Shown: positions 38,660 to 55,623 of the stretch, piece by piece
Layout of the letters: each line of letters starts with the position of its first letter
Position numbering within the stretch: position 1 is the stretch's first letter
Sequence record: OQ870555.1
DNA from: Escherichia phage PECP14
Direction: 5' to 3' (one strand)
DNA: 64,000 nucleotides
Position numbers and translations under genes: made by a program
The notes under the pieces: generated by a model
Database searches by the model: none
Told to the model about the DNA's origin: nothing
Seen by the model: the letters and a program-made list of their open reading frames with translations, nothing else

Positions 38660-38666
38660 AATTTTA

Positions 38667-39038: not shown

Positions 39039-39047
39039 ATAAATTAT

Positions 39048-39124
39048 GCGATCGGGGCTGGCTTGGTAATGGTACTCCCCTGTCACGGGAGAGAATGTGG
39101 GTTCGAATCCCATCGGTCGCGCCA
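39048..39124 (+). tRNA. tRNA-Asp(GTC)
   Basis: AC arm CTCCC-CTGTCAC-GGGAG; T-arm GTGGG-TTCGAAT-CCCAT. Confidence 0.7.
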
Positions 39125-39138
39125 ATTTAGGCTATAGT

Positions 39139-39330
39139 ATGACACGCAAATATTTAGTTATTAAAGGTGAACATGCAGGACAAACTGTATACTCATTGAA
39201 ATTTCATGATTATGGTTTAGCCTCAGATGATACTCGATATACTGGAATAGAGCATACAAGTGTAACATTAGACGAAACAGGTGATTATCCTAGTTTTACT
39301 ATTCCTAAAGATTTCTTAAAAGAGATTTAA
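39139..39330 (+). CDS. hypothetical protein
   Basis: start moved downstream of tRNA-Asp. Confidence 0.4.
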   Translation: MTRKYLVIKGEHAGQTVYSLKFHDYGLASDDTRYTGIEHTSVTLDETGDYPSFTIPKDFLKEI

Positions 39331-39331
39331 T

Positions 39332-39408
39332 GCTTCCATAGCTCAACTGGTTAGAGCTACCGCCTCTTAAGCGGAGGGTTGAAGGTTCAAGTCCTTCTGG
39401 GAGTACCA
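39332..39408 (+). tRNA. tRNA-Lys(CTT)
   Basis: D-stem GCTC/GAGC; AC loop CTCTTAA; T-arm GAAGG-TTCAAGT-CCTTC. Confidence 0.6.
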
Positions 39409-39611
39409 AACAAATAGAGTAAAGGCTACAGTAGGTGCACCCTTACGGACTGCTACACCGGACTCTATTCATTAACAAACATTCTAGCGTGGTGGAGAGG
39501 GGACACCAGCTTGCCGAGGGTAGAAGCTCGTTCGATTCGAGTGAAAGAATGGTTCTCGTAAATCCGCACAAGTGATAGCAGGTTCAAGTCCTGCCTAGAT
39601 TGACTTATTAT
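39409..39611 (+). other. degenerate tRNA-like elements
   Basis: two T-arm-like hairpins (CTCG-TTCGATT-CGAG; GCAGG-TTCAAGT-CCTGC) with no complete cloverleaf. Confidence 0.3.
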
Positions 39612-39685
39612 GCGTTCGTAGTTAAAAGGTATAATTTTTGGTTGCCAACCAGAAGTTGAGGGTTCGATTCCCTCCGACCGCACCA
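39612..39685 (+). tRNA. tRNA-Gly(GCC)
   Basis: AC arm TTTGG-TTGCCAA-CCAGA; T-arm GAGGG-TTCGATT-CCCTC. Confidence 0.6.
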
Positions 39686-39933
39686 AATTTAGGTTTCTGC
39701 TTCCTAGAGAACGAACTCCTAGATAAACAAGGTGATGAGTTTCCGGCCGGTTCTAGTCGCTGAAAATCCTCCCGACCAGGTAGGTGTAAGTAAACGAAAG
39801 TTTACTTATTAAGTAAGTCCGACACATCGGCGGGTGTGTTCTAGTACTTAAAGAAGGTCTAGCAAACTTTCTCGCTAGCATGAGTTGATAGCTCGGTGAC
39901 TTACCTAATAAGTAAATTTATTAAAAAATGTAG

Positions 39934-39962
39934 TTGCTATTTAGCTTAATTCTCTGTATAAT
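39934..39962 (+). promoter_or_regulatory. early promoter preceding tRNA-Pro/Met cluster
   Basis: TTGCTA-17-TATAAT. Confidence 0.5.
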
Positions 39963-39994
39963 ATATTTTATAAAGTGAGTTAACAAAGAATATT

Positions 39995-40072
39995 CTCCGT
40001 GTAGCTCAGTTTGGCCAGAGCGTTTCGTTTGGGGCGATAGGGTCGGGGGTTCAAATCCTCCCACGGAGACCA
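39995..40072 (+). tRNA. tRNA-Pro(TGG)
   Basis: acceptor CTCCGTG/CACGGAG; D-stem GCTC/GAGC; AC loop TTTGGGG. Confidence 0.7.
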
Positions 40073-40078
40073 AACAAT

Positions 40079-40156
40079 TGCGGGTTAGATCTCTGGTAGA
40101 GATCGCTAGTCTCATAAGCTAGAAAGAGGTAGGTTCGATTCCTGCACCCGCTTCCA
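40079..40156 (+). tRNA. tRNA-Met(CAT), possibly initiator (1:72 mismatch)
   Basis: D-stem GATC/GATC; AC arm CTAGT-CTCATAA-GCTAG; T-arm GTAGG-TTCGATT-CCTGC. Confidence 0.55.
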
Positions 40157-40177
40157 ATTCAATAGAAGGATTTCGAA

Positions 40178-40342
40178 ATGAAATTATTTCGCTTAAAAGT
40201 AAGTGATCTACGTTCTAGTAAAGATCGTAAGAAGTATCTATTAGCCCATTACGGTAAAGATAAAAATGAAGTAATGGCGGAATTTGGTATTAATCATCCT
40301 TACTTGAAAGTCTACTCTATTAAAGAAGTATACATGTACTAA
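40178..40342 (+). CDS. small hypothetical protein
   Basis: 54-codon ORF between tRNAs. Confidence 0.3.
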   Translation: MKLFRLKVSDLRSSKDRKKYLLAHYGKDKNEVMAEFGINHPYLKVYSIKEVYMY

Positions 40343-40344
40343 AT

Positions 40345-40423
40345 AGATCGCTAGCTCAATTGGTTTAGCAGCACCCGGCTTTTAACCGGAAGGTTCTGGG
40401 TTCGAGTCCCAGGCGGTCTACCA
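40345..40423 (+). tRNA. tRNA-Lys(TTT)
   Basis: acceptor AGATCGC/GCGGTCT; AC loop CTTTTAA; T-arm CTGGG-TTCGAGT-CCCAG. Confidence 0.65.
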
Positions 40424-40440
40424 ATTTAAAGGAATTTGTT

Positions 40441-40758
40441 ATGAATATTAACAAAGTTCTAGAAACAATATCAGAAATGTCTGGTAGAGCTGGAAAACGC
40501 TTTACTGAACTATGTATTAAAAATCAAAAAGTACCAGAACATCAATGTCATTATTGTCGAGATTGTGAACAATACCATGAAATGTGTATGGTTGAAGATT
40601 GGGTCTGGAATCAGATAAGAAAAGAACAACCCAAAGATATTGTTCTATGTTTTACTTGTATGGAACGACGTTTAGGACGTAAAATTACTCTTAAAGATCT
40701 TAAACATGTTCCCTGTAACGCTCCTTACTTCATTGGCTTTAGAATGGAGAGATTTTAA
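40441..40758 (+). CDS. Cys/His-rich protein, possible HNH-type nuclease
   Basis: CHYCRDCEQYHEMC...CFTCMERR. Confidence 0.35.
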   Translation: MNINKVLETISEMSGRAGKRFTELCIKNQKVPEHQCHYCRDCEQYHEMCMVEDWVWNQIRKEQPKDIVLCFTCMERRLGRKITLKDLKHVPCNAPYFIGFRMERF

Positions 40759-40891
40759 TGACTATCTGGTTTTACTTAATGAAGCAGAAAATAAAAGATC
40801 CCTATGTATTCTCTGCCGATTTTACAATAGGTATGTTTATAGCAGGTTTCTGTGAATTTGTAGTTGAAGCCTACATTATAGGAAGTCTTTT

Positions 40892-40965
40892 GCTCGGTTA
40901 GTTTAATGGGAGAACCCCGTCTTTACACGGCGGTTGCGATAGTTCGATTCTATCACCGAGTACCA
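40892..40965 (+). tRNA. tRNA-Val(TAC)
   Basis: AC arm CCGTC-TTTACAC-GGCGG; T-arm GATAG-TTCGATT-CTATC. Confidence 0.65.
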
Positions 40966-40990
40966 ATTAACTCAAAATAAGGAATTGCAA

Positions 40991-41344
40991 ATGCAATTAT
41001 CAAGCAAGGTTCAAGGCTATTTCGGACATGTAACAATGGAGTTCGCTATCTCTAAAGGTTGGGACTTCGAACAAGATTTAGCTGAGTTCTACAAAGATAT
41101 TGATCTGAACGTACCGTACATGGGACTCTCAACTGGTCAAGAGATCACAGAAGCCGACGTGTTCAAGGCAAGTCAAGGTGAGGTAACACCTAGTTTTGCC
41201 GAGTTCTGGTTAGGTATCACACTGAAAGAAGATGCACCGGATAGTGGAGTACTAATGACTAGTATGCACTCTGGAAGCTCTGATTACCTTTTCGTTAGTG
41301 ACGTTAAGGAAATACAAGAAATCTGCAAAAATGTACTTGCTTGA
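40991..41344 (+). CDS. hypothetical protein
   Basis: ORF after tRNA-Val. Confidence 0.45.
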   Translation: MQLSSKVQGYFGHVTMEFAISKGWDFEQDLAEFYKDIDLNVPYMGLSTGQEITEADVFKASQGEVTPSFAEFWLGITLKEDAPDSGVLMTSMHSGSSDYLFVSDVKEIQEICKNVLA

Positions 41345-41365
41345 TGCTTAATTTCTTGTTATAAT
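41337..41365 (+). promoter_or_regulatory. early promoter driving a non-coding stretch
   Basis: TTGCTT-17-TATAAT; next ORF starts 360 bp downstream. Confidence 0.5.
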
Positions 41366-41725
41366 ATTTATATAAATTGATGTGAAAATAGCTGCCTAGA
41401 TATTAGGTGTATGACGTCTACACTAGCAGAGCTACCGAAAAAAGAGATCCTCAGGATAAACGCCGTAGCAAAATTAGTCTGATATCCATCAATTTAGTTC
41501 ACTAAGGTATTAGCTCGACCTAGGACTGGCTGCCAAAAAGCACGGTTGCAATTAGACCCATAATGGCGGGGGATACTTTGCAAGAAGTTCTAGATTAGTC
41601 CACTAGATTCAGCGGCAACTGAATAGTGTATCGGGTTTGTGGAGAGCGGTTATCCTCTACTGGCTAATGTCTGAGGGTAATACGCACACCGAGCTAATAG
41701 CCTTAGTAAACTAGAAGGAATATCT
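41366..41725 (+). ncRNA. candidate promoter-driven non-coding RNA
   Basis: 360 bp with no ORF after the promoter at 41337-41365; GC-rich. Confidence 0.3.
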
Positions 41726-41989
41726 ATGTTTGATCTTAAAGATATGGCTAAGAAACTAATGTCGCAACGTTATCAACAAAGAACCCTCCATAAACGAGTT
41801 TCCGATATGAAGAAACGTTGCAATAATGCTAAGTATTATAATAGTCTTAATAAACTATCTGATATAGATCTTGCTAAAACTGAAGCAATATATAATCACT
41901 TAGTAGTAGAATCTGATATAGTGAATAAAGATATTGCTAGGCTAGAAGCTCAGATTGTAGCAACTGTTCTCGATATGTATAGAGAATAA
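41726..41989 (+). CDS. hypothetical protein
   Basis: ORF. Confidence 0.45.
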   Translation: MFDLKDMAKKLMSQRYQQRTLHKRVSDMKKRCNNAKYYNSLNKLSDIDLAKTEAIYNHLVVESDIVNKDIARLEAQIVATVLDMYRE

Positions 41990-41998
41990 ATAAATTTT

Positions 41999-42077
41999 GG
42001 GGAATGGGTCTGCATGGAGTGGACACCTCGCTTGCACCGAGGACATCAGAACGGTTCGATTCCGTTATTCTCCACCA
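41999..42077 (+). tRNA. tRNA-Ala(TGC)
   Basis: AC arm CCTCG-CTTGCAC-CGAGG; T-arm AACGG-TTCGATT-CCGTT. Confidence 0.6.
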
Positions 42078-42083
42078 AAATTC

Positions 42084-42159
42084 GGGGTCATAGGTTATTT
42101 GGTTAAACTTACTGCCTTGCAAGCAGTGGAACTCAGTTCAATTCTGAGTGACTCCACCA
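42084..42159 (+). tRNA. tRNA, anticodon TGC (second Ala-type)
   Basis: AC arm ACTGC-CTTGCAA-GCAGT; T-arm CTCAG-TTCAATT-CTGAG. Confidence 0.55.
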
Positions 42160-42178
42160 AACAAATTAAGGAAATAAT

Positions 42179-42397
42179 ATGGTATTCTTAGCAGCCTCTG
42201 TAGTTCTTGCAGCTTTAGCACTAGCTATCTATTTTAGAACTATTAAAGATTTAGCTAAAGAAAAGAAAACTTTCTTTACTGATTATTCTTGGGGCGCTCC
42301 ATATACCGTCCGCTTTATCAGCTTAGAAGCTATGCTGATAATGGTATTCAGTGGTATAGGTTCCGTTGTTACAGGGTTACTATTTATTTCTAACTAA
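42179..42397 (+). CDS. small membrane protein
   Basis: two hydrophobic helices. Confidence 0.45.
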   Translation: MVFLAASVVLAALALAIYFRTIKDLAKEKKTFFTDYSWGAPYTVRFISLEAMLIMVFSGIGSVVTGLLFISN

Positions 42398-42404
42398 ATA
42401 AAAT

Positions 42405-42485
42405 GGGGATGTGGCGAAATTGGCAGACGCGCTAGATTTAGGTTCTAGTCTTCGGGTGTGGGTTCGAGTCCCTCCATCCCTACCA
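42405..42485 (+). tRNA. tRNA-Leu(TAG)
   Basis: AC arm CTAGA-TTTAGGT-TCTAG; long variable arm. Confidence 0.6.
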
Positions 42486-42659
42486 AACATTGGATTAACT
42501 CATGATGAAAACTCCTATAACTGATATCTGGTTAGCTGTTAATACATTAACTAAAGAGTATGTGTTTATAGAGTATGGTCAGAGGTATGACCAAAAGATG
42601 TATAATCTCATACTTCCAGTATCCGCTAATGAAGTTTATGATTTAATCCTGAGATCTAC

Positions 42660-42750
42660 GGAAGAGCAAATCGATTAGGTGACGAAAACCACTTGGAAAG
42701 TGGCTGACTGGTAAAACGGCTTGAGAGTTCGAATCTCTCTTCTTCCGCCA
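42660..42750 (+). tRNA. tRNA-Ser(GGA)
   Basis: AC loop TTGGAAA; long variable arm; T-arm GAGAG-TTCGAAT-CTCTC. Confidence 0.55.
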
Positions 42751-42757
42751 AACAACT

Positions 42758-42847
42758 GGAAGGTAGGACATAGTGGTATGTAACAGGTCTTGAAAACCTG
42801 CCCGCTGTAGCGATATGGTGATGGTTCGACTCCATTACCTTCCTCCA
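42758..42847 (+). tRNA. tRNA-Ser(TGA)
   Basis: AC arm CAGGT-CTTGAAA-ACCTG; long variable arm; T-loop TTCGACT. Confidence 0.65.
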
Positions 42848-42865
42848 ACTAATAAGGAAAACCTT

Positions 42866-43069
42866 ATGAAACACATTGTTAAGTATACCGAAAGCGAACG
42901 TGGCTGGGGTGGTGAAATCTGGTATCGTCCATTTGACACCGAGGCCGAAGCCTTGATGGAAGTTAATGATGTAAATAAAGATCTACCTAAAGATCATGTG
43001 CCAACATACTACATCCAAGCTGAGTATATTGGTGTTAAGGATAAGGTTCCCGAAGGTTACAAGTTTTAA
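42866..43069 (+). CDS. hypothetical protein
   Basis: start after tRNA-Ser with AAGGAAA SD. Confidence 0.45.
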   Translation: MKHIVKYTESERGWGGEIWYRPFDTEAEALMEVNDVNKDLPKDHVPTYYIQAEYIGVKDKVPEGYKF

Positions 43070-43388
43070 ATAATTCTTGAAGTATGCCGGAATCGGTAGA
43101 CGGGGCTTCCTAAAGGGCGTAAGGGGAACATCCACTCCTCATAAGATACCCGAAAACGAGGCTGAGATAAATGGTCTATCTCGTGAAGGTTCAAGTCCTT
43201 CTGCTTCTTGATACATCAATGGCTCAAAGAGTAACGGTGCACCTTTCTAGAGAATTTCCTGGGCGAGAATCCAGGTGTAATCAACTAGTTGTTAGTGTGA
43301 TGAGTTTCGGAGAGCCGCCACAATTGAAGTCTTTAGAATGGGTATCGCCCTTTAGCCCCTCCGAAAGGGATAACTAGAGATTTCAATT

Positions 43389-43465
43389 GTGGCTATATCA
43401 TAATTGGTTAATGATCCTGATTGTGAATCAGGCCTATGTGGATTCGAATTCCACTAGCCACCCCA
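43389..43465 (+). tRNA. tRNA-His(GTG)
   Basis: AC arm CCTGA-TTGTGAA-TCAGG; T-arm GTGGA-TTCGAAT-TCCAC. Confidence 0.7.
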
Positions 43466-43471
43466 AATATT

Positions 43472-43546
43472 GCGTCCTTATTTCAATGGAAAGAATGTAA
43501 AGCTACGAACTTTACGATCGGGGTTCGATTCCCTGAGGATGCACCA
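43472..43546 (+). tRNA. tRNA-Arg(ACG)
   Basis: AC arm TAAAG-CTACGAA-CTTTA; T-loop TTCGATT. Confidence 0.65.
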
Positions 43547-43570
43547 ATTAACTTATATAGGAACTAAAAT

Positions 43571-43771
43571 ATGGCTGATTTCTGCAAAGAATGCTCTATC
43601 GATATGTGGGGCAAAGATACTGGTGATCTTTCTGGTCTGATTACAGAAGCCGAAGTTAAAGAAGGCTATGGTGCTGTTGTAATCTGTGAAGGTTGTGGTA
43701 TTATTCGTGTTGATCATAATGGTAAACGTCTAGAAGAACCAGATCCAATTGCCACGGTTCCTGTAGAATAA
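43571..43771 (+). CDS. small Cys-rich protein
   Basis: CKEC...CEGCG. Confidence 0.4.
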   Translation: MADFCKECSIDMWGKDTGDLSGLITEAEVKEGYGAVVICEGCGIIRVDHNGKRLEEPDPIATVPVE

Positions 43772-43778
43772 AAATTAT

Positions 43779-43854
43779 TGGGATGTAGATCAATTGGCAG
43801 ATCGTCGGCCTCTGACTCCGAAGGTTCCACGTTCGATCCGTGGCATCCCAGCCA
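43779..43854 (+). tRNA. tRNA-Gln(CTG)
   Basis: AC loop CTCTGAC; T-arm CCACG-TTCGATC-CGTGG. Confidence 0.65.
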
Positions 43855-43860
43855 AATACT

Positions 43861-43936
43861 TGGAGAGTAGTGTAACGGTTAGCACAACGGCCTTTGACTC
43901 CGTTAATGGTAGGTTCGATTCCTCCTTCTCCAGCCA
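43861..43936 (+). tRNA. tRNA-Gln(TTG)
   Basis: AC loop CTTTGAC; T-loop TTCGATT. Confidence 0.6.
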
Positions 43937-43942
43937 ATTTAT

Positions 43943-44017
43943 GCGTGATTAGTTCAGTGGCTAGAATAACTGGCTTCCAACCAGTAGACACGAGTTCGAC
44001 TCTCGTATCCCGCACCA
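43943..44017 (+). tRNA. tRNA-Gly(TCC)
   Basis: AC arm ACTGG-CTTCCAA-CCAGT; T-arm ACGAG-TTCGACT-CTCGT. Confidence 0.65.
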
Positions 44018-44033
44018 AATATAAGGAAACGTT

Positions 44034-44255
44034 ATGCACGTTTTTGAGTTTCGTAATAAAAACCCTAATAGACGAGTTTTAATTATTGGTGAAACATATC
44101 GAGCTTATGAGCAAGAAGATGGTTCGGTTTTATTAAATGATGAAAAGCAAGGCTATAGTTTTCATCCAGAAGAAACATATGAGGAATTTCGTACTAAGTT
44201 TCTTTTACCAGACTGGCTAGCAATAGCTGAGCAAAGAGAACCCGAAGATGGCTGA
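44034..44255 (+). CDS. hypothetical protein
   Basis: ORF. Confidence 0.45.
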   Translation: MHVFEFRNKNPNRRVLIIGETYRAYEQEDGSVLLNDEKQGYSFHPEETYEEFRTKFLLPDWLAIAEQREPEDG

Positions 44256-44422
44256 TAATCTAAAGCTAAAGGTAGATAAACAAATGAAGTGCGTTGAGGT
44301 TGAGTTGGGTGAAGAACGTTTAAAACTCTCCTTCGAATTCTTACAACAGTTGGCTATGACAGTAATGTCTGATAAGTCTCCTGTATTTGAAAAAGAAATT
44401 CCGTTGAAATAACGGGTTTATT

Positions 44423-44497
44423 GCTCCTAAAGCATTGCTGGCAATGCAGTTGCCTTGTAAGCATCTGAACCGGGTTCGATTCCTGGTGGGAGCACCA
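44423..44497 (+). tRNA. tRNA-Thr(TGT)
   Basis: D-stem GCAT/ATGC; AC loop CTTGTAA; T-loop TTCGATT. Confidence 0.65.
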
Positions 44498-44512
44498 AAT
44501 TTAAAAATTCAT

Positions 44513-44541
44513 TTGCCTTCTCTCTTATTTCTTGTTATAAT
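44513..44541 (+). promoter_or_regulatory. early promoter cassette
   Basis: TTGCCT-17-TATAAT. Confidence 0.5.
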
Positions 44542-44571
44542 ATTTATATAAATTAATGAGAGGGAAGGCAA

Positions 44572-44865
44572 ATGAAACGTTATCTTTCTGTCGTATTCCA
44601 AACGGGTGGTCAACGCTACACTTACGAATTTCCTGAGTCTTGGAAAATCAAAGAGGGTGATCAAGTTGTTGTGCTAACACCTCGTGAAGGCTTCAAAGTA
44701 GTAACGGTTAAACAAGTATTTCCAAAAGATCACGAACCATCTAAGTCTATTAACTATAAGATGATTCATGGTCTGGTACGAAAAGTACCTAGAACAGAAG
44801 TCGAAGTAGATAAAACTGGAGAAGCTAAATACCAGTATACCTCTTACTTAGACGAAATGATGTAA
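44572..44865 (+). CDS. hypothetical protein
   Basis: promoter cassette + GAGGGAAGG SD. Confidence 0.5.
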   Translation: MKRYLSVVFQTGGQRYTYEFPESWKIKEGDQVVVLTPREGFKVVTVKQVFPKDHEPSKSINYKMIHGLVRKVPRTEVEVDKTGEAKYQYTSYLDEMM

Positions 44866-44866
44866 T

Positions 44867-44942
44867 GCTCCGATAGTTCAAACGGTTAGAACAGGCGACC
44901 GATAATCATCAAATCTTGGTTCGATCCCAAGTCGGAGTACCA
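44867..44942 (+). tRNA. tRNA-Ile(GAT)
   Basis: D-stem GTTC/GAAC; AC loop CCGATAA; T-arm CTTGG-TTCGATC-CCAAG. Confidence 0.55.
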
Positions 44943-44948
44943 AATTAT

Positions 44949-45021
44949 AGTTAGTTGGCAGAGTGGTTATGCACCTCCTTCATACGGAGTGACTACAGTG
45001 GTTCAAATCCACTACTAACTA
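44949..45021 (+). tRNA. tRNA-Met/Ile2(CAT), CCA not encoded
   Basis: acceptor AGTTAGT/ACTAACT; AC loop TTCATAC; T-arm AGTGG-TTCAAAT-CCACT. Confidence 0.55.
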
Positions 45022-45393
45022 CTAAACAGAGGATCAGGTCATTGTACCAGATCCTGCTGAGAAGAGAGTCCACATTCTATAAATGCCCGGGCGTGACAGC
45101 AGGAAGTAGACTGCAACTCCATGCTATCCAGGAGTATAAATGTAGAAGCTAGGACTTTAGATAGACATTGTCTTAGCGTGAGCAATCACGTAGTTGCAAC
45201 AGACCTGGAAGATCGCAACGTTAAAATCAAAGTTCCAGTGCTTATTTATCTAATCGAGACCATCAATCTCACCGGAATGCTAGCACCCCAACAGTAGCTA
45301 GTGATTAGATAATAAGCAAGCCTGCCTTCCAGTTTTTATCTTGCTTCTGGGTTAACAAAAAGCTGAGCCAAATTCTAACATCAGGGAGATCTA
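45022..45393 (+). ncRNA. candidate non-coding RNA downstream of tRNA cluster
   Basis: 370 bp ORF-poor GC-rich stretch between the last tRNA and the grcA-like gene. Confidence 0.25.
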
Positions 45394-48981: not shown

Positions 48982-49010
48982 TTGCTCAGATGCCACAAGT
49001 ATTGTATAAT
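48982..49010 (+). promoter_or_regulatory. early promoter
   Basis: TTGCTC-17-TATAAT. Confidence 0.5.
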
Positions 49011-49041
49011 ATGTTTATAGATTGAGGCAAAAGGATAATTT

Positions 49042-49740
49042 ATGAGAATCATTTCAAAGTTCAATGATGTATACGATTTGCAGAATAGTTTATTTGATCC
49101 AGATCGTGTCTGGGAGCGTAAAACTGAAGAGCTGCTAGTAAAAGTAACTGACGATGTAGAAAAGAATATCGTTCATAATCGTCAGGTGTTTCGTGAGGGT
49201 TCCTTATCCTTCCGTGGTGACTTCGAATACTCAGTAAATCCACTGTTTATTGCAGGTGAAGTTTACTGGTTACATGAACTGTCCTGCTGGCATCCAGCAT
49301 TCAGTTTCAAAACGTTCAACATCGATGCTGTGTTCGATAAAATGGAAGAAATGGGATTACATGCCCGTTCTTACTTACTAGATAAGAATCGTGGTGATGT
49401 TCGTGAAACCATGCGAGATATGTTGGTTGAAGCAAAACCTAAAGCAGAACGTATCTTATCTGAACTGCGCGTACCAATTGCATATGTGAAGGGTATTAAG
49501 AAGAACGATAACGACGATGTTCGTAACTTCGTAATTCAGACCAACATTCGTTTCCACCAGTCGGGTATTCCGTGGCAGGAAATTGAAAGTAACTTATACC
49601 GTTTACACCAAGTTCTCGAACAGTATATTTTCGGTGTACTAGGAACTGGTGAGCCTGATATGATTACCGTATCAGATAAAGACAGGTTAGCAGCACATGG
49701 ATTTGATACAAAAACTTCTTTCAGGAATATGGCAAGGTAA
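49042..49740 (+). CDS. hypothetical protein
   Basis: promoter cassette upstream. Confidence 0.5.
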   Translation: MRIISKFNDVYDLQNSLFDPDRVWERKTEELLVKVTDDVEKNIVHNRQVFREGSLSFRGDFEYSVNPLFIAGEVYWLHELSCWHPAFSFKTFNIDAVFDKMEEMGLHARSYLLDKNRGDVRETMRDMLVEAKPKAERILSELRVPIAYVKGIKKNDNDDVRNFVIQTNIRFHQSGIPWQEIESNLYRLHQVLEQYIFGVLGTGEPDMITVSDKDRLAAHGFDTKTSFRNMAR

Positions 49741-50146
49741 GTGGTATATCCTGGGAGCTGGTCTTGCGATAGGTATCGGATTCGGTGCTTATCACTTAGT
49801 AAGTAAGGTTGAAACTCTAGCTGGAGATCTTGCAGTTGCGACTAAAAAGATCTCCACTCTAGAGACTTCCCTTAATAAGGTGAAAACTGAGAGTGAACTT
49901 CGTGAGACTCGAATGAACCAGTATTTCACAATGAATAATATTTCGCAAGCAGATCTAGACAAAAAGATTAAGCAGCTAGATAAAGCTCTTAGTCGTCAAG
50001 ATGTTATCGCTGCAAAGCCTGGATTGGTAACATTAATTGCTAAAAAGCAGAATAAAGAGTTCGAGGAAAGATTAGCATGTTTAACTGGAAACTTGGAGTA
50101 CTGCTCGCAGCCGCAATCACAATCACAGGCTGTGCAGAAGAAATAA
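49697..50146 (+). CDS. membrane-anchored coiled-coil protein
   Basis: N-terminal TM then coiled coil. Confidence 0.45.
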   Translation: MDLIQKLLSGIWQGKWYILGAGLAIGIGFGAYHLVSKVETLAGDLAVATKKISTLETSLNKVKTESELRETRMNQYFTMNNISQADLDKKIKQLDKALSRQDVIAAKPGLVTLIAKKQNKEFEERLACLTGNLEYCSQPQSQSQAVQKK

Positions 50147-50430
50147 AACCAGAGCCATCTCATGAGTTAAAGCAAGCTCATGTTGACTGGCCTAAAGGAC
50201 TTCAGCCGTGTAGCTTTGATTTCAAATTCGAAAAGAAATTAGCTACAAATGGTGAAGATGGCGTAGTAGTTGTTGTACCTTACAAAGATTGGAATGCAAA
50301 AGCAAAATGCGAGGAAGCAGTTTACTCTTACATTTCACGACTGACCGGTATGGTTTGCTTCTATCGTCAAGATTTACAAGAAAAACGTTGCTTAGTTTAC
50401 TATCCACCCATTACAAATAGGAAAGATTAA
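50077..50430 (+). CDS. putative lipoprotein
   Basis: lipobox LAAAITITGC. Confidence 0.45.
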   Translation: MFNWKLGVLLAAAITITGCAEEIKPEPSHELKQAHVDWPKGLQPCSFDFKFEKKLATNGEDGVVVVVPYKDWNAKAKCEEAVYSYISRLTGMVCFYRQDLQEKRCLVYYPPITNRKD

Positions 50431-51182
50431 TGTCAGTATTAGTCGGTTTACATGGTGAGGCTGGTGCGGGAAAAGATACCGTTGCAGAATTAATGATTGA
50501 CTGGTGTAATGACACGTTCCCAACGTGTTTATCCCGTCGTTACAGTTTTGCTAAACCCGTTTACGAACTTGCATCCGTAATCCTCGGGGTAACTCCAGAG
50601 TTTCTGGGAGAGCGCAGGGGAAAAGAGATTGACCAATGGTTTACGGTCACACAATCTCAATTGGAGCGAGCTAGAGACGTATGGTTTAAGTATGGTATCG
50701 ATAAGTTTGAGGACTTCTCGTACGTTTGGCCGATTTTTGAAGGAAAATACCTTGATCCTCAGCAGTTAATTGGGCAAGCTGATGATGCGCTGTATAGCGT
50801 ATTTATCTCCCCAAGAAAAATGCTACAGCTTGTAGGTACTGAGTTAGGAAGGCAGCTGGTGCATGAACGCATTTGGCTCATAATTCTGGAGCAATCCATC
50901 GATAAAGACGACCCAGACGTCGCAATCGTTACCGATGTGCGTTTCCCCAATGAGGGAGAGCTAATCATGGAAACCAATACTCTAGATATGGATTCCATGC
51001 TTATTAAGGTTGAATCTGGTATTACTAATAAGTATCGCATCGAGACAGATCATCCGTCTGAAAGCGGTATTCCTGAAAAATACATTTCTCATAAATTTGA
51101 GAATACCTTCAACGGACTTGATGCACTTCGTACTGATGTGTACCACTTCTGTGACTTAGAGCTAGAACCACTAGTTGGATAA
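50430..51182 (+). CDS. deoxynucleoside monophosphate kinase-like P-loop kinase
   Basis: P-loop GEAGAGKDT at N-terminus. Confidence 0.55.
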   Translation: MSVLVGLHGEAGAGKDTVAELMIDWCNDTFPTCLSRRYSFAKPVYELASVILGVTPEFLGERRGKEIDQWFTVTQSQLERARDVWFKYGIDKFEDFSYVWPIFEGKYLDPQQLIGQADDALYSVFISPRKMLQLVGTELGRQLVHERIWLIILEQSIDKDDPDVAIVTDVRFPNEGELIMETNTLDMDSMLIKVESGITNKYRIETDHPSESGIPEKYISHKFENTFNGLDALRTDVYHFCDLELEPLVG

Positions 51183-51194
51183 TTAAGGATCACT

Positions 51195-51794
51195 ATGACT
51201 AATAAGAAAGAAGAAAAGACTAACCTGTTTCACACTGTTCGCCAATCTAACGAATATACCTTTTTCTTTGATGAAGAATTAGGCTCACCGGATGAGTATC
51301 GTGACCTATCCATGATACTGATGCAGGCTGGTGAAGATGATGAAATTAATCTGATGATTAATGGGCCTGGTGGTTACGTTGATACTGCTGCACAACTATC
51401 TAATCTAATCGCTAACTGTCGTGGAACGGTTATTGGACACCTGCTCGGTCCTAGTGCTTCTGCTTACTGCACAATCTTCCTGTCTTGCCACGGTTGGGTT
51501 GTACATCCACATGCTACGCTTATGGGACATACGTTCTCTGGCGGATTCTGTGAGAAAGGTCAAGAAATCAAGAAAGCCTATGAATCTTACAACCAGTTTG
51601 TAGAAGATATGATGCTCGATGTTTACTTCCCGTTCTTCTCTATTGACGAGATCGAGGACATGGTAAAAGAGAATAAGAATATCTACCTCAACAGCAAAGA
51701 AATCAATAAGCGTATTGAAATTTTGGCGAATTATCGCAAAGAGCAATATAGTAAAGCTCAAGCTCCACATCCAGAAGAACATGGAGAAGTGTAA
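51195..51794 (+). CDS. ClpP/S14-like peptidase domain protein (tentative)
   Basis: INGPGGYVDTAAQLSNLI...GPSASAYCTIFLSC resembles ClpP core. Confidence 0.35.
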   Translation: MTNKKEEKTNLFHTVRQSNEYTFFFDEELGSPDEYRDLSMILMQAGEDDEINLMINGPGGYVDTAAQLSNLIANCRGTVIGHLLGPSASAYCTIFLSCHGWVVHPHATLMGHTFSGGFCEKGQEIKKAYESYNQFVEDMMLDVYFPFFSIDEIEDMVKENKNIYLNSKEINKRIEILANYRKEQYSKAQAPHPEEHGEV

Positions 51795-51802
51795 GTAGTT
51801 TT

Positions 51803-51836
51803 AAGCCAGAGTTGTTAAACTCTGGCTTTTCTTTTG
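51803..51836 (+). terminator. intrinsic terminator
   Basis: AGCCAGAGTT-GTTA-AACTCTGGCT + TTTCTTTT. Confidence 0.6.
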
Positions 51837-51897
51837 CCTAAAATTCTTCTTGACAACGACAAAAAATTATGCTCCAGAAGTGATCTTTAAAAACACG

Positions 51898-51926
51898 TTG
51901 TAATTTTCCTCTAGAATTAGTATAAT
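51898..51926 (+). promoter_or_regulatory. sigma70-like promoter upstream of holin-like gene
   Basis: TTGTAA-17-TATAAT followed by GGAGG SD and GTG start. Confidence 0.45.
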
Positions 51927-51950
51927 GGTAATGGTTAGAGGAGGTTACAA

Positions 51951-52607
51951 GTGGAAAAGTTTCTACAACTATTAACGGTACTGCTCCAAGAAGCGAAAGA
52001 TCCAGCTTCGCTACTAAAACGTCTGCTAACTATCTTAGTTGCTGTCATTATTTTCTTGTTTGTAAGTAACACTAGCGAGGTGATGTCATTTTTAAAGACT
52101 TTCTCCACGTCTGCGGTTTTACAGGATGTTCAAACCCAAAGGATAGATAACTTTCCTAATGTAGCACGAGAAAAGAGCATGGTCCTTTTCTCTCAGACGG
52201 GTGCGGATGCTGTTTTTGTAGTCAAGTATAAACCCGATGCTATAAACGATTATTCGAACATTATTGCATGGGAAAGCAATGCGCAATTGGATAGGGCTGA
52301 CTTGGCCGATAAAGCAGTAAACAAGACGTCTGAACTTTATAGACGTCACCTGGAAGGCTTTAACTACGCTTCGGATTTAAGTGTAAAAGTAAATAAATAT
52401 ATGGGGTCAAATATACCCGCGTTTAAGAACGTTACTTTTAATTACGTCTACACTTGTCCGTATTTCAATCTAAATAATATCTATGCTGGATACATAGGTA
52501 TTGCCTGGAAGGATAAACCCGTAGATACAGCTGACTCGGAACAATTTAATGAGTACTTAACAAAGCTTTGCTCACCGCAGCAAAGATCATTAGGTAGATC
52601 TATATGA
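51951..52607 (+). CDS. membrane protein, holin candidate
   Basis: GTG start with GGAGG SD; N-terminal TM; immediately upstream of endolysin. Confidence 0.4.
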   Translation: MEKFLQLLTVLLQEAKDPASLLKRLLTILVAVIIFLFVSNTSEVMSFLKTFSTSAVLQDVQTQRIDNFPNVAREKSMVLFSQTGADAVFVVKYKPDAINDYSNIIAWESNAQLDRADLADKAVNKTSELYRRHLEGFNYASDLSVKVNKYMGSNIPAFKNVTFNYVYTCPYFNLNNIYAGYIGIAWKDKPVDTADSEQFNEYLTKLCSPQQRSLGRSI

Positions 52608-53017
52608 GTTTTAAATTTGGTAAAAATAGCGAAAAACAATTAGCAACTGTTAAGCCCGAGCTACAAAAGGTAGCTCGTAGGGCTTTAGAACTATCTCCGT
52701 ATGATTTCACAATCGTACAAGGTATTCGTACAGTAGCACAAAGTGCCCAAAACATTGCTAATGGTACTTCATTTTTGAAAGACCCTAGCAAGAGTAAACA
52801 TGTAACGGGAGACGCTATCGATTTTGCACCATATATTAATGGTAAGATTGATTGGAAAGATCTGGAAGCATTTTGGGCTGTTAAGAAGGCTTTTGAACAA
52901 GCTGGTAAGGAACTTGGTGTCAAACTTCGTTTTGGTGCCGACTGGAATAGTTCTGGTGATTATCATGATGAGATCGATCGTGGTACTTACGACGGTGGTC
53001 ACGTAGAATTAGTCTGA
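52604..53017 (+). CDS. lys: endolysin, L-alanyl-D-glutamate peptidase (M15-like)
   Basis: SKHVTGDAIDF ... DGGHVEL zinc-ligand H/D/H pattern; 137 aa. Confidence 0.65.
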   Translation: MSFKFGKNSEKQLATVKPELQKVARRALELSPYDFTIVQGIRTVAQSAQNIANGTSFLKDPSKSKHVTGDAIDFAPYINGKIDWKDLEAFWAVKKAFEQAGKELGVKLRFGADWNSSGDYHDEIDRGTYDGGHVELV

Positions 53018-53027
53018 TAATAAATCA

Positions 53028-53052
53028 AGGCGGGGTAATTCCCGCCTTTTAA
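53028..53052 (+). terminator. intrinsic terminator after endolysin
   Basis: GGCGGG-GTAATT-CCCGCC + TTTT. Confidence 0.55.
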
Positions 53053-53092
53053 AGCAAAGGGGGCTTTAAAAACTTAATGATAGGAGAAAGCC

Positions 53093-53509
53093 ATGTTTGC
53101 AGAACTATTCACCATGATATTACTAGGAATATGGAAAATAAGCCTAGTAATTTTCATCTTAATGATAATTCTCACTATTGTCGCACTAGTTACCCAAAAT
53201 GATACATTAAAGAAAGTCGTTCATGGGCTAGAGTATATAATTATGGGCACATTCGGCGTTTGCAAATGCAACTGCCAGAGGAATACGAAATATTGTTGGC
53301 TTTGGATGGAGTTAGAGAACTGCATCACAGTAGCCCTGGCTGTCTCATTCGGTATGATTCTTATGGCCCTTACTCTAGCATTGATACCACTAATGTTAGC
53401 TGGGGGAGTCACGGCTTATTTCACCCTTTTCTCCCCTATACTTATGTATTCAATATATCCAATAACTATGTACTTAGTTAGGAAGAGATTCCCACATCAA
53501 GCACACTAA
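53093..53509 (+). CDS. polytopic membrane protein
   Basis: four hydrophobic helices. Confidence 0.45.
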   Translation: MFAELFTMILLGIWKISLVIFILMIILTIVALVTQNDTLKKVVHGLEYIIMGTFGVCKCNCQRNTKYCWLWMELENCITVALAVSFGMILMALTLALIPLMLAGGVTAYFTLFSPILMYSIYPITMYLVRKRFPHQAH

Positions 53510-53522
53510 TATAAAAAAGTAG

Positions 53523-53551
53523 TTGACTTTCCGCTGAAATTTTTATATAAT
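53523..53551 (+). promoter_or_regulatory. early promoter (TTGACT variant)
   Basis: TTGACT-17-TATAAT + ATAAATTGAATCAGAGGAG. Confidence 0.55.
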
Positions 53552-53584
53552 ATTTGTATAAATTGAATCAGAGGAGTTTCACAA

Positions 53585-53995
53585 ATGTCAGATCGTTACT
53601 ATACTCAGATGGCTAACCATTACAATATGGCTCCGTATGAATTGAACATCGCATTACGTGACCTCGATTCACCAGAGCGTGCAAAACTTGAGAAAAAGGC
53701 GGGAATTCGTATGTCTAGCAAGGGCAAGAAACTTACTCGTATTGACTTAAATACCATGCTAATGGAAGAGCTTGGCGTGAATATTGAAGGTCAGAAGTTG
53801 CCTCTCAATGTTCTTGAAACGATGCTGGATAAAGTCAAAAAGAAAACCTATAAGAAAGTACAAGTACCGGAAGGCAGGCTAAAAGCCCCTTATCAGGCTG
53901 CTGTATCTGAGTGCTTAGGTGCTACCTTAGATCTTAGCACTGCAACAGTAAAAGTAATGAAGGCATTTTTGGAGGCCATTAATAAACATGAGTAA
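53585..53995 (+). CDS. hypothetical protein
   Basis: promoter cassette upstream. Confidence 0.5.
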   Translation: MSDRYYTQMANHYNMAPYELNIALRDLDSPERAKLEKKAGIRMSSKGKKLTRIDLNTMLMEELGVNIEGQKLPLNVLETMLDKVKKKTYKKVQVPEGRLKAPYQAAVSECLGATLDLSTATVKVMKAFLEAINKHE

Positions 53996-54278
53996 ATTAG
54001 TATATCTATTGAAGGGATCTACCTGCAATCCATGCAAGATGTTTGAGCCTGTATTTGATAAAGTAGTACAGGATTACAGTTTAGAAGTTCATAAAGAGAC
54101 TGATAACACAGAACTTATGCAGAAATTTGGCGTTCGTCAGGTTCCTGTAGTAGTTCTAGCAGATCGTCTCCCGAATGGTCGTGTGGAAGCCAACCACATT
54201 CTGATTGGTCGTCAGCTTCGTAAGGAAACTATGCACGATGCAATCAAAAACTTCCTGGAAGATAATCCAGAAGATTAA
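53988..54278 (+). CDS. thioredoxin/glutaredoxin-like protein
   Basis: CNPC active-site-like motif. Confidence 0.5.
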   Translation: MSKLVYLLKGSTCNPCKMFEPVFDKVVQDYSLEVHKETDNTELMQKFGVRQVPVVVLADRLPNGRVEANHILIGRQLRKETMHDAIKNFLEDNPED

Positions 54279-54284
54279 TACCCA

Positions 54285-54316
54285 AAGCCTAGTCTTAGCT
54301 GACTAGGCTTTTTTAT
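54285..54316 (+). terminator. intrinsic terminator
   Basis: AAGCCTAGTC...GACTAGGCTT + TTTTT. Confidence 0.6.
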
Positions 54317-54319
54317 TAC

Positions 54320-54349
54320 TTGCTTTCTGCTAAAAATTTTGATATAATA
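54320..54349 (+). promoter_or_regulatory. early promoter cassette
   Basis: TTGCTT-18-TATAAT. Confidence 0.5.
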
Positions 54350-54379
54350 TATGTATAAATTGATGAGAGGAGTATCACA

Positions 54380-54760
54380 TTGAATTACGCATATCTTATA
54401 ATACATAACAACGTGGTCTGTGGTACTCGTGCTGTAGAAATGGGAATCACAGAAGAAAAATATAAGTCACTGCCTGAAAAGGAGCAAGAATATTATGTTG
54501 AGCAAGCTGCTTGGGAATATGCTGAAGTTTATCCCGAAGAACGTGAAGGCCGTGTTACTATTGTTGTTGCTCTGGGGCTGGTGGGCTGTGATACCGAAGT
54601 TGATACAGATCTAGAAACACTTGAAGAATGGGAAGGATTGGATATTGCAGAACAAAATGCTATCATCCGTCAATCTTTCTGGGAAGTAGTAGACTGTCAC
54701 GTTGTCTTTGAGCCAAATGATACAGAAGCTGAAAAACACACTAATTGGATGACTCGATAA
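54380..54760 (+). CDS. hypothetical acidic protein
   Basis: TTG start after promoter cassette. Confidence 0.4.
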   Translation: MNYAYLIIHNNVVCGTRAVEMGITEEKYKSLPEKEQEYYVEQAAWEYAEVYPEEREGRVTIVVALGLVGCDTEVDTDLETLEEWEGLDIAEQNAIIRQSFWEVVDCHVVFEPNDTEAEKHTNWMTR

Positions 54761-55623
54761 TGAAAAAAGAATTTAACCTGCACGAAATGTTAGTAGTACC
54801 AGACGATGTTAACCTGTTCTTCGTAGGAGATATTCACGGCTGTAATGATATGCTGGAAGATGCTCTTAAACTAGCAGGATATAAAGAAAAGCGTGACTAT
54901 GTTGTCTGTGTTGGCGACTTAATTGACCGTGGCCCGCAGAACTTACAGGTTCTAGCCAAATTCTTATATAACCCACGCTTCCGTAGCGTTCGTGGCAACC
55001 ATGATCAGTTTATGATTGCCGGGGATTATGCCAACTGGATGTATAATGGTGGAATGTGGGCAATGAATGATCTGGATACCGATACAATTAAAGGTATCGC
55101 AGAAGATATGGCAGTTAAAATGCCAGTATTCATGACTGTACTCCATCGTGGCAAGAAATACGGTGTTGTTCATGGTGGAATACCATTCCAGTATAAAGAT
55201 GCGGGATTCGATGTACATACACCTAATTGGGACGATATTATTGATCATATCGCTGCAAGTGAAAATGATCCTAATGATCATCCTAGTTATTACATTGAGC
55301 CATATCTATGGGATCGTGATGTAATTCAGGAAATTGGTTTTCATCTGTCTAAGCAAGGTGCAGAGCACCCCTATTTCCAGCGTTATGCAGGATTTAAAGA
55401 TGAATTGACTGTGGAAGTACCAGAAGTTGAGAGTGTGGATTTCGTATTCCACGGACACACTGGTGTTCCTTACCCAATTCTGTACAAGAACCGTGTTTAT
55501 CTCGATACTGGCGGTGTTTTCAACGGGCAGTTGACGGTTGCGCAAGTTAATGATGAAGCTGGTAAGATTATGACATTTACCACTGACAAAGATGATAGCT
55601 GTGGTGTACAGAGGATTCTATAA
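54760..55623 (+). CDS. Ser/Thr protein phosphatase (PPP-family metallophosphatase)
   Basis: GDIHGC, GDLIDRG, RGNHD motifs. Confidence 0.75.
   Translation: MKKEFNLHEMLVVPDDVNLFFVGDIHGCNDMLEDALKLAGYKEKRDYVVCVGDLIDRGPQNLQVLAKFLYNPRFRSVRGNHDQFMIAGDYANWMYNGGMWAMNDLDTDTIKGIAEDMAVKMPVFMTVLHRGKKYGVVHGGIPFQYKDAGFDVHTPNWDDIIDHIAASENDPNDHPSYYIEPYLWDRDVIQEIGFHLSKQGAEHPYFQRYAGFKDELTVEVPEVESVDFVFHGHTGVPYPILYKNRVYLDTGGVFNGQLTVAQVNDEAGKIMTFTTDKDDSCGVQRIL

What the first reader, a model, noticed from the sequence alone, without database searches (positions are those of the whole stretch)
51951..53509. Lysis-type genes embedded in the early region
A membrane protein (holin candidate, GTG start with GGAGG SD), an M15-like L-Ala-D-Glu peptidase endolysin (H..D..H zinc ligands, 137 aa) and a four-helix membrane protein lie together, preceded by a sigma70-like promoter rather than the early cassette. 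Their position among early genes is unusual for lysis functions.
Basis: partly seen in the sequence, partly recalled or inferred. Interest (0 to 1): 0.4.

Follow-up and report, generated by a model that had tools for sequence, protein, structure and literature searches.

The report
T5-type holin–endolysin lysis operon
This is the well-known holin–endolysin lysis operon of a T5-like phage, sitting where it sits in every phage of that family, so it is real but ordinary.

Summary
The window is a T5-like phage (Demerecviridae, about 99.5% identical to Salmonella Epseptimavirus genomes). The three ORFs at 51951-53509 are orthologues of T5.041 (holin), T5.040 (lys, EndoT5) and T5.039 (four-TM hypothetical), at 96.3, 96.4 and 82.6% amino-acid identity. 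The 218-aa protein is a full-length T4-gpT-type class III holin (Pfam PF11031, E 1e-114). The 137-aa protein is 132/137 identical to the solved EndoT5 L-alanyl-D-glutamate peptidase, with the SxHxxGxAxD motif, D130 and H133 intact. The window carries at least 20 copies of the T5 early promoter cassette, and the holin promoter lacks the cassette's discriminator and downstream element. The interpretation "unusual position" does not hold. This placement is conserved across Demerecviridae, is annotated in T5 and is noted in the literature. The third gene belongs to a tiny family confined to T5-like phages and always lies just downstream of the endolysin. Its lysis role is not shown. Verdict: already known, low interest.

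The parts
48982..49010 (+). Early-cassette promoter (TTGCTC-N17-TATAAT, then ATGTTTATAGATTGAGG) heading the operon of the T5.047-like gene, the spanins, dnk and the Clp-like protease
   Evidence: motif scan; it corresponds to the annotated T5 promoter at 24443-24517
49697..50146 (+). i-spanin (149 aa; N-terminal Gly/Ala-rich TMD, coiled-coil periplasmic part), orthologue of T5.045
   Evidence: phrog_739 Rz-like spanin, E 8e-38; annotated as i-spanin in Sw2; 84.6% identical to T5.045
50077..50430 (+). o-spanin (117 aa; lipobox ITG|C with Cys19). Its 5' end overlaps the 3' end of the i-spanin gene by 70 nt in another frame. Orthologue of T5.044
   Evidence: phrog_812 Rz-like spanin, E 4e-30; sequence; annotations; 90.6% identical to T5.044
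50430..51182 (+). dNMP kinase (dnk), a classical T5 early enzyme; it lies between the spanins and hol-lys and is not a lysis gene
   Evidence: Pfam PF21448 and phrog_139; T5.043
51195..51794 (+). Clp-protease-like protein (T5.042 orthologue); a conserved upstream neighbour of the endolysin throughout Demerecviridae
   Evidence: Pfam PF00574 and phrog_1827; synteny
51803..51838 (+). Intrinsic terminator (11-bp stem, -17.4 kcal/mol, z -5.0, T-rich tail) ending the upstream early operon
   Evidence: annotated as a terminator in T5, Sw2, Sugarland and Slocum
51849..51855 (+). Invariant CTTGACA element 68-71 nt upstream of the -10 hexamer. No -10 lies at a usable spacing, and its function is unknown
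   Evidence: alignment of six divergent Demerecviridae intergenic regions
51898..51926 (+). hol-lys promoter: -35 TTGTAA, 17-nt spacer, -10 TATAAT, then discriminator GGTAATGG. It lacks the ATATT and ATAAATTGA element of the early cassette
   Evidence: annotated as a promoter in T5
51951..52607 (+). Holin, class III (T4 gpT type), 218 aa, GTG start, GGAGG SD at 51940-51944, single TMD at about residues 20-40, large C-terminal domain with conserved C169 and C207
   Evidence: Pfam PF11031, E 1e-114, covering 3-217 of the protein and 2-233 of 233 profile positions; phrog_860 holin; 96.3% identical to T5.041; alignment A4
52604..53017 (+). Endolysin: Zn-dependent L-alanyl-D-glutamate peptidase (M15C, EndoT5 orthologue), 137 aa, soluble, with no signal or SAR segment. 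Its start overlaps the holin stop (ATGA)
   Evidence: 132/137 identical to PDB 2MXZ/8P3A; Pfam PF13539; phrog_465; S64-x-H66-x-x-G69-x-A71-x-D73, W114, D130 and H133; maximum hydropathy 0.57
53027..53048 (.). GC-rich 9-bp hairpin after lys with only a short U tract on the + strand; probably a leaky terminator or attenuator
   Evidence: -16.4 kcal/mol, z -2.2; annotated as a putative terminator in T5 and Slocum; absent where ORF3 abuts lys in L009
53093..53509 (+). T5.039 orthologue: 138-aa membrane protein with four predicted helices, a Cys-containing basic loop (residues 55-76) and a basic C-terminus. Function unknown. There is no room for its own promoter in the 44 nt after the hairpin, so it is read from the hol-lys promoter
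   Evidence: phrog_5944, unknown function; no Pfam or NCBIfam family; family of 10 clusters only; alignment A2; context
53523..53551 (+). Next early-cassette promoter (TTGACT-N17-TATAAT-ATTTGTATAAATTGA), marking the start of the downstream operon of the T5.038-like gene and thioredoxin

Best explanation
This is the canonical lysis operon of a T5-like siphophage.

Transcription. Host sigma70 RNA polymerase starts at a dedicated promoter (51898-926), just after the terminator of the upstream early operon. The transcript has a very short leader.

Holin. The class III, T4-gpT-type holin is translated from a weak GTG start. It has one TMD and a large periplasmic domain. It accumulates in the inner membrane until it triggers and forms large holes.

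Endolysin. The soluble, signal-less endolysin is translated by coupling at the ATGA overlap. It is a Zn-dependent L-alanyl-D-glutamate peptidase nearly identical to EndoT5, which is Ca-activated. It escapes through the holes and cuts the peptide stems of the peptidoglycan.

Spanins. The i-/o-spanin pair at 49697-50430 then disrupts the outer membrane. It is transcribed separately from an early-cassette promoter together with dnk.

Third gene. Its transcript must come from read-through of a weak hairpin after lys. It encodes a lineage-restricted four-helix membrane protein of unknown role.

Shown and inferred. Shown here: homology, motifs, gene order, the promoter and terminator anatomy and its conservation. 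Inferred: the timing of expression, translational coupling, the low holin translation rate and read-through into ORF3.
For: - Phage identity: the region is 99.5% identical over 2 kb to Epseptimavirus genomes that annotate holin and endolysin here. The T5 record has the same order with a promoter and terminators.
- Holin: Pfam PF11031, E 1e-114, full length; phrog_860; a single TMD; C169 and C207 invariant among five divergent homologues. PMC12894885 states that T5 hol is a close homologue of T4 gpt and a class III holin.
- Endolysin: 132/137 identity to 2MXZ/8P3A, 'L-alanyl-D-glutamate peptidase'. H66, D73 and H133 are present. D73, W114, D130 and H133 are invariant in homologues down to 32% identity. 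Ca-activated EndoT5 biochemistry is described in PMC10487532.
- Spanins: PHROG Rz-like spanin hits and the Sw2 and T5 annotations.
- Promoter and terminator anatomy.
- Prior description: a T5-like lysis cassette of holin, soluble peptidase endolysin and i-/o-spanins is described in PMC4342426.
Against: Nothing found here contradicts the assignment. The gaps are these:
- No expression-timing or activity data for this phage were available.
- The one paper on T5 hol/endo transcription and translation (Chernyshov et al. 2024, cited) could not be read.
- NCBIfam has no model for any of the three proteins.
- MAFFT did not place H66 in one column for the two most distant endolysins because of a loop-length difference.
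- The zinc-ligand numbering (H66, D73, H133) and D130 as catalytic base come from my recollection of Mikoulinskaia et al. 2009, not from a text read here.
Confidence: 0.93

Rival explanations
1. The three genes form a functional triad: the four-helix protein (ORF3, T5.039) is a dedicated lysis regulator or accessory, such as an antiholin, a holin partner or a second pore former, as the first reader implied by grouping it with the lysis genes.
For: - ORF3 homologues lie immediately downstream of the endolysin in every lineage examined that has one: T5, Sw2, Sugarland, Slocum, L009, L010/L011, L012/L013 and L014/L015.
- In L009 only 1 nt separates the two genes.
- In the window the gap has no room for a promoter.
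- ORF3 is retained where the M15 endolysin has been replaced by a PF00959 lysozyme.
Against: - The whole early region is syntenic in these phages, so adjacency may simply be inherited.
- Providencia phage PSTCR5 has the T-type holin and the endolysin but no ORF3.
- There is no similarity to any holin, antiholin or other annotated family: phrog_5944 is 'unknown', and Pfam and NCBIfam give nothing.
- The loops predicted to face the periplasm are very short, unlike T4 RI, which binds the periplasmic domain of gpT (my knowledge).
- The AF2 model is of low confidence (pLDDT 56).
Confidence: 0.2
2. Despite lying in the early region, the hol-lys operon is regulated like a late or continuously expressed unit. 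Its promoter lacks the early-specific discriminator, so it escapes the shut-off of early promoters. The conserved distal CTTGACA is part of that control.
For: - PMC7472727 reports that all known T5 early promoters carry ATATT in the discriminator and differ from late promoters mainly there. It also reports that gpT5.026 acts on discriminator contacts.
- The hol promoter has GGTAATGG (window) or GGTACTGG (T5) instead, and lacks the ATAAATTGA element. The annotated T5 late promoters P-G25, P-J5 and 110375 lack that element too.
- The promoter architecture, including the distal CTTGACA at a fixed 68-71 nt, is conserved in six divergent phages.
Against: - No expression data were available here.
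- Some promoters in the early region also lack the cassette (P-K28b and e13212; 60481 and 62951), so lacking the cassette does not mean late.
- Holin clocks can time lysis from early, low-level expression without any transcriptional switch. The weak -35 (4 of 6) and the GTG or TTG start fit that simpler model.
- The distal TTGACA has no partner -10 hexamer at 16-18 nt.
Confidence: 0.3

Closest known systems
Bacteriophage T5 hol (T5.041, 'C1') - lys (T5.040, EndoT5) - T5.039 operon, with the T5.044/T5.045 spanins
   Same: Gene order, sizes (218, 137 and 138 aa), the 4-nt hol/lys overlap, the terminator-promoter-operon-hairpin layout and the overlapping spanin pair two genes upstream are all the same. 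Amino-acid identities are 96.3, 96.4, 82.6, 90.6 and 84.6%.
   Different: - The holin start codon is GTG here and TTG in T5.
- The -35 is TTGTAA here and TTGAAA in T5.
- T5 has an HNH endonuclease gene (hegF) between the T5.047 gene and the spanins, which is absent here.
- The endolysin has five substitutions, none at the metal-ligand or W114 positions.
Phage T4 holin gpT (class III holin, Pfam PF11031)
   Same: The protein matches the family profile over its full length, has one N-terminal TMD with a large C-terminal domain, and has the same length of 218 aa (T4 length from my knowledge).
   Different: - In T4, t is a late gene unlinked to the endolysin gene e, and it is controlled by the antiholins RI and RIII (lysis inhibition).
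- Here the holin is translationally coupled to its endolysin in one operon inside the early region.
- No RI or RIII homologue was looked for or seen.
M15C L-alanyl-D-glutamate peptidase endolysins of RB43/RB49 and PDB 8Q2G, 23RI; ChiX (5OPZ)
   Same: They share the fold family and the SxHxxGxAxD Zn motif, with E-values of 1e-20 to 6e-12.
   Different: About 40% identity only. The RB43 and RB49 enzymes lack the Ca-regulatory loop that EndoT5 has and that is kept here (PMC10487532).

Membership tests
Class III holin, T4 gpT family (Pfam PF11031 Phage_holin_T) | Full-length match to the family profile above the curated threshold | tested here: met
   382 bits against a cut-off of 22.2, E 1e-114, protein residues 3-217 on profile positions 2-233 of 233
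Class III holin, T4 gpT family (Pfam PF11031 Phage_holin_T) | A single TMD near the N-terminus followed by a large soluble C-terminal (periplasmic) domain | tested here: met
   One hydrophobic peak only, at about residues 20-40, with a Kyte-Doolittle 19-residue maximum of 2.44. The N-in/C-out orientation itself was not tested.
Class III holin, T4 gpT family (Pfam PF11031 Phage_holin_T) | Lethal hole formation in the inner membrane that releases a cytoplasmic endolysin | not testable with these tools
   This needs expression and complementation assays.
M15C Zn-dependent L-alanyl-D-glutamate peptidase (EndoT5 type) | Close sequence relation to an enzyme with a solved structure and a characterised activity | tested here: met
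   132/137 identical to 2MXZ/8P3A, E 1.8e-88
M15C Zn-dependent L-alanyl-D-glutamate peptidase (EndoT5 type) | Zn ligands and catalytic residues: the SxHxxGxAxD motif and the C-terminal D-x-x-H | tested here: met
   S64, H66, G69, A71, D73, D130 and H133 are present. D73, W114, D130 and H133 are invariant in six homologues down to 32% identity.
M15C Zn-dependent L-alanyl-D-glutamate peptidase (EndoT5 type) | Soluble cytoplasmic enzyme with no signal peptide or SAR domain, hence holin-dependent | tested here: met
   No hydrophobic segment; the 19-residue hydropathy maximum is 0.57.
M15C Zn-dependent L-alanyl-D-glutamate peptidase (EndoT5 type) | Muralytic activity on the L-Ala-D-Glu bond | not testable with these tools
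   Shown for T5 EndoT5 in the literature (PMC8140593, PMC10487532), not for this variant.
Two-component spanin (Rz/Rz1 type, overlapping genes) | An i-spanin with an N-terminal TMD, plus an o-spanin lipoprotein with a lipobox Cys, encoded by overlapping genes | tested here: met
   phrog_739 and phrog_812, 'Rz-like spanin'. The o-spanin begins MFNWKLGVLLAAAITITGC, with Cys19. The genes overlap at 50077-50146. Annotated as spanins in Sw2 and T5.
T5 early promoter cassette (A-tract, TTGCTw -35, TATAAT, ATATT discriminator, ATAAATTGAtGAGAGG) | The ATATT-type discriminator and the conserved ATAAATTGA element downstream of the -10 | tested here: not met
   The hol promoter has TATAAT followed by GGTAATGGTTAGAGGAGG. 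At least 20 other promoters in the window carry the element. The early-promoter definition is taken from PMC7472727.
Known holins, antiholins or other lysis regulators (considered for ORF3 / T5.039) | Sequence or profile similarity to any annotated lysis family | tested here: not met
   The only match is phrog_5944, 'unknown function'. Pfam gave nothing, and NCBIfam gave only a chance-level hit (E 0.09). The exhaustive HMM search found 10 clusters, all of the same unannotated family.

The most novel reading that the evidence does not exclude
The T5.039-family four-helix membrane protein may be a previously unrecognised partner or regulator of T-type holins. It is co-transcribed with hol-lys and retained next to the endolysin slot even when the endolysin type is swapped. 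Together with the non-cassette promoter and its invariant distal CTTGACA, the hol-lys-ORF3 unit would be a self-contained timing device. That device would let lysis genes sit in an early region without causing premature lysis.
Probability: 0.15. Interest if true: 0.45.

Novelty: already known. Interest (0 to 1): 0.1.

Why it matters
For the scan, it matters mainly as a negative result. The "lysis genes among early genes" pattern is the normal, published architecture of T5-like phages, not an anomaly of this genome.

Some modest open points remain for phage biologists.
- It is unclear how T5-like phages delay lysis to about 40 min (my recollection, not checked here) when the holin and endolysin are encoded in the early region.
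- The function of the conserved distal CTTGACA is unknown.
- It is unknown whether the T5.039 family takes part in lysis control.

EndoT5-type enzymes also attract applied interest as antibacterials, but this variant differs from the studied enzyme by only five residues.

Tried and rejected
- NCBIfam scan of all three proteins and the spanins gave nothing above chance.
- Rfam scan of 49000-55000 gave no RNA family.
- Folding of the holin 5' region and the hol/lys junction showed no structure beyond shuffled controls (z +0.34 and -0.52). I therefore do not propose an mRNA hairpin masking the starts.
- The AF2 model of ORF3 had pLDDT 56 and pTM 0.38, so no fold search was run because the matches would be meaningless.
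- I considered the distal TTGACA (51850) as the -35 of a second promoter. It was rejected because the only -10-like hexamer (TATGCT) lies at a 12-nt spacing and nothing usable lies at 16-18 nt in any of the six phages.
- Literature searches for T5.039, T5.040 or T5.041 by locus tag found nothing, and a search for T5 temporal RNA-seq with holin found nothing relevant.
- The CRISPRi-ART T5 paper's main text has no occurrence of holin, endolysin or spanin.
- The key paper on the T5 hol/endo operon (Chernyshov et al. 2024) is not in the library.

Full report
**What the window is.** A 2-kb query around the finding matches 449 phage records. The best matches are 99.5% identical over the full length: Salmonella phages GEC_vB_N3 and N7, vB_SabS_Sds2 and Sw2, the last being Demerecviridae, Markadamsvirinae, Epseptimavirus. 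These records annotate Clp protease, holin, endolysin and two hypothetical proteins under the match. The window also carries 28 tRNA genes at 30-45 kb, as T5-like genomes do. The + strand of the window corresponds to the - strand of the T5 reference NC_005859.

**Checking the observation.**
- ORF 51951-52607 (218 aa) starts with GTG, six nt after GGAGG (51940-44). It has a single hydrophobic segment at about residues 20-40.
- ORF 52604-53017 (137 aa) starts with an ATG that overlaps the holin stop (ATGA). It has H66, D73 and H133.
- ORF 53093-53509 (138 aa) is very hydrophobic. A low-confidence AF2 model gives four long helices.
- A promoter-like site, TTGTAA-N17-TATAAT, lies at 51898-51926.
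- Consensus promoter hits in this region are no more frequent than in shuffled sequence (19 against 16.9). The case for this promoter therefore rests on conservation (below) and on the T5 annotation.

**What the proteins are.**
- The 218-aa protein matches Pfam PF11031 (Phage_holin_T) end to end at E 1e-114, and PHROG 860 (holin). It is 96.3% identical to T5.041. Five homologues down to 47% identity keep the TMD position, the YTCP(Y/F)FNLNN block and two cysteines, C169 and C207. [quoted passage not shown]
- The 137-aa protein is 132/137 identical to PDB 2MXZ/8P3A, the L-alanyl-D-glutamate peptidase of T5. It carries S64-x-H66-x-x-G69-x-A71-x-D73. D73, W114, D130 and H133 are invariant in homologues down to 32% identity. 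It has no hydrophobic segment, so it is a soluble, holin-dependent endolysin. EndoT5 is a Zn enzyme activated by Ca through a loop containing W114 (PMC10487532), and that loop is kept here.
- The 138-aa protein is the orthologue of T5.039, annotated 'contains four transmembrane domains' (82.6% identity). It matches only PHROG 5944 (unknown function) and no Pfam or NCBIfam family.

Two genes upstream of the Clp-like gene lies an overlapping spanin pair.
- The i-spanin is at 49697-50146 and the o-spanin at 50077-50430, with lipobox ITG|C (Cys19).
- Both hit PHROG 'Rz-like spanin' families. They correspond to T5.045 and T5.044 and to the annotated Sw2 spanins.
- The phage therefore has the full holin, endolysin and spanin set. 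It is split into two transcription units by dnk (50430-51182) and a Clp-like protease gene (51195-51794). This T5-like lysis cassette has been described (PMC4342426).

**Transcription anatomy.**
- The window contains at least 20 copies of a stereotyped promoter cassette. It consists of an A-tract, TTGCT(A/T), a 17-nt spacer, TATAAT, an AT-rich ATATT-like discriminator, and ATAAATTGA(T)GAGAGG running into the SD. The same cassette is seen in annotated T5 early promoters. PMC7472727 reports that all known T5 early promoters carry ATATT in the discriminator and differ from late promoters mainly there.
- One cassette (48982-49010) heads the operon of the T5.047-like gene, the spanins, dnk and the Clp-like gene. 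That operon ends at a strong terminator (51803-51828, -17.4 kcal/mol, z -5).
- The hol promoter follows. It has a weaker -35 (4 of 6), a perfect -10 and the discriminator GGTAATGG. It has no ATAAATTGA element, and its leader is so short that it holds little more than the SD.
- After lys there is a GC-rich hairpin with a poor U tract (53027-53048). ORF3 follows 44 nt later, with no room for a promoter, so ORF3 must be read from the hol promoter.
- The next cassette promoter (53523-53551) starts the operon of the T5.038-like gene and thioredoxin, which ends at the terminator at 54284-54311.

**Conservation.**
- The same order, spanins, dnk, Clp-like, terminator, holin, endolysin, is found in T5, Sw2, Klebsiella phage Sugarland, Serratia phage Slocum, Providencia phage PSTCR5 and four metagenomic lineages. 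In PSTCR5 the 222-aa holin is present but unannotated.
- Vibrio phage X1 keeps Clp-like and endolysin adjacent without a T-type holin.
- The Clp-hol intergenic region keeps the same layout in six phages whose holins are only 46-67% identical to the window's. The layout is a terminator, an invariant CTTGACA 68-71 nt upstream of the -10, a TTGnAn -35, GTATA(A/C)T, an SD and a start codon. The start codon is GTG in four phages, TTG in T5 and ATG in Sugarland.
- Being 'among early genes' is thus the family norm. [quoted passage not shown]' (PMC3326045).

**The third gene.**
- An exhaustive profile search of 1.84 billion representatives found only 10 clusters, all of 130-138 aa.
- Their alignment keeps M1, G52, G55, C59, G87, G105, Y119 and R130, and a basic C-terminus.
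- In every lineage examined that has it, it lies directly after the endolysin. In L009 it lies 1 nt after.
- It stays in place in L012 and L013, where the M15 peptidase has been replaced by a PF00959 lysozyme.
- PSTCR5 lacks it.
- This fits a lysis-associated accessory, but it is equally explained by inherited synteny. I give the lysis-regulator reading about 0.2.

**How it most likely works.**
- Shown by homology and anatomy: the holin forms holes, the cytoplasmic peptidase reaches the murein, and the spanins finish the envelope.
- Inferred: a moderate promoter, a weak start codon and a holin threshold set the lysis time. hol and lys are translationally coupled, and the hairpin attenuates ORF3 expression.
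- Open: whether the non-cassette promoter gives the operon different temporal control from the surrounding early genes. I put this at about 0.3. Some early-region promoters also lack the cassette, and no expression data could be consulted. The one dedicated paper (Chernyshov et al. 2024) is not held.

**Verdict.** The claim of an unusual position is not supported, because this is the known T5 arrangement. Novelty: already known. Interest: low (0.1). Small residual questions concern T5.039 and the conserved distal promoter element.

Noticed in passing
window 49697-50146 and 50077-50430: An overlapping i-spanin/o-spanin pair (T5.045/T5.044 orthologues) that completes the lysis gene set. It is driven by an early-cassette promoter at 48982-49010 and is separated from hol-lys by dnk and a Clp-like protease gene.
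   Followed up: yes
window 51849-51855 (also T5, L005, L006, L008, L009 intergenic regions): An invariant CTTGACA lies 68-71 nt upstream of the holin promoter's -10 in six divergent Demerecviridae, with a semi-conserved TATG 12-13 nt after it. No -10 lies at sigma70 spacing, and the function is unknown. It could be a regulator site or an RNAP docking site.
   Followed up: partly
window, at least 20 sites, e.g. 16704, 23396, 24820, 27997, 28838, 35803, 44513, 46859, 48982, 53523, 54320, 56890, 57398 (+ strand); 5435, 4069, 57 (- strand): A highly stereotyped early promoter cassette: A-tract, TTGCTw, N17, TATAAT, an ATATT-like discriminator, and ATAAATTGAtGAGAGG running into the SD. It matches annotated T5 early promoters.
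   Followed up: partly
L012 2900-3397 and L013 2118-2615 (metagenomic T5-like contigs): Endolysin module swap: between a conserved T-type holin and a T5.039 homologue, a 165-aa PF00959 (T4-lysozyme-type) enzyme replaces the M15 peptidase.
   Followed up: partly
L008 2833-3501 (Providencia phage PSTCR5, MW057857.1): A 222-aa T-type holin gene (GTG start, 46% identical to the window's holin) sits in an unannotated gap of the GenBank record, directly upstream of the endolysin. This phage lacks a T5.039 homologue.
   Followed up: yes
L007 2762-3887 (Vibrio phage vB_ValS_X1): In this Vibrio T5-like phage the Clp-like protease gene overlaps the endolysin gene directly, with no T-type holin between them. 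The Clp-like-endolysin adjacency is therefore older than the holin's presence at this site.
   Followed up: no
window 30382-45022: A cluster of 28 tRNA genes on the + strand, typical of T5-like early regions.
   Followed up: no
holin start codons: window 51951; T5 20997; L005 3651; L006 3532; L008 2833; L009 2927: The holin start codon is non-ATG in five of the six lineages (GTG four times, TTG in T5) and ATG only in Sugarland. This suggests selection for low holin translation.
   Followed up: partly
search hits H74 (OR848346.1) and others: Records named 'Listeria phage' and 'Campylobacter phage' carry near-identical T5-like sequence, probably from mislabelled or contaminated short assemblies.
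   Followed up: no
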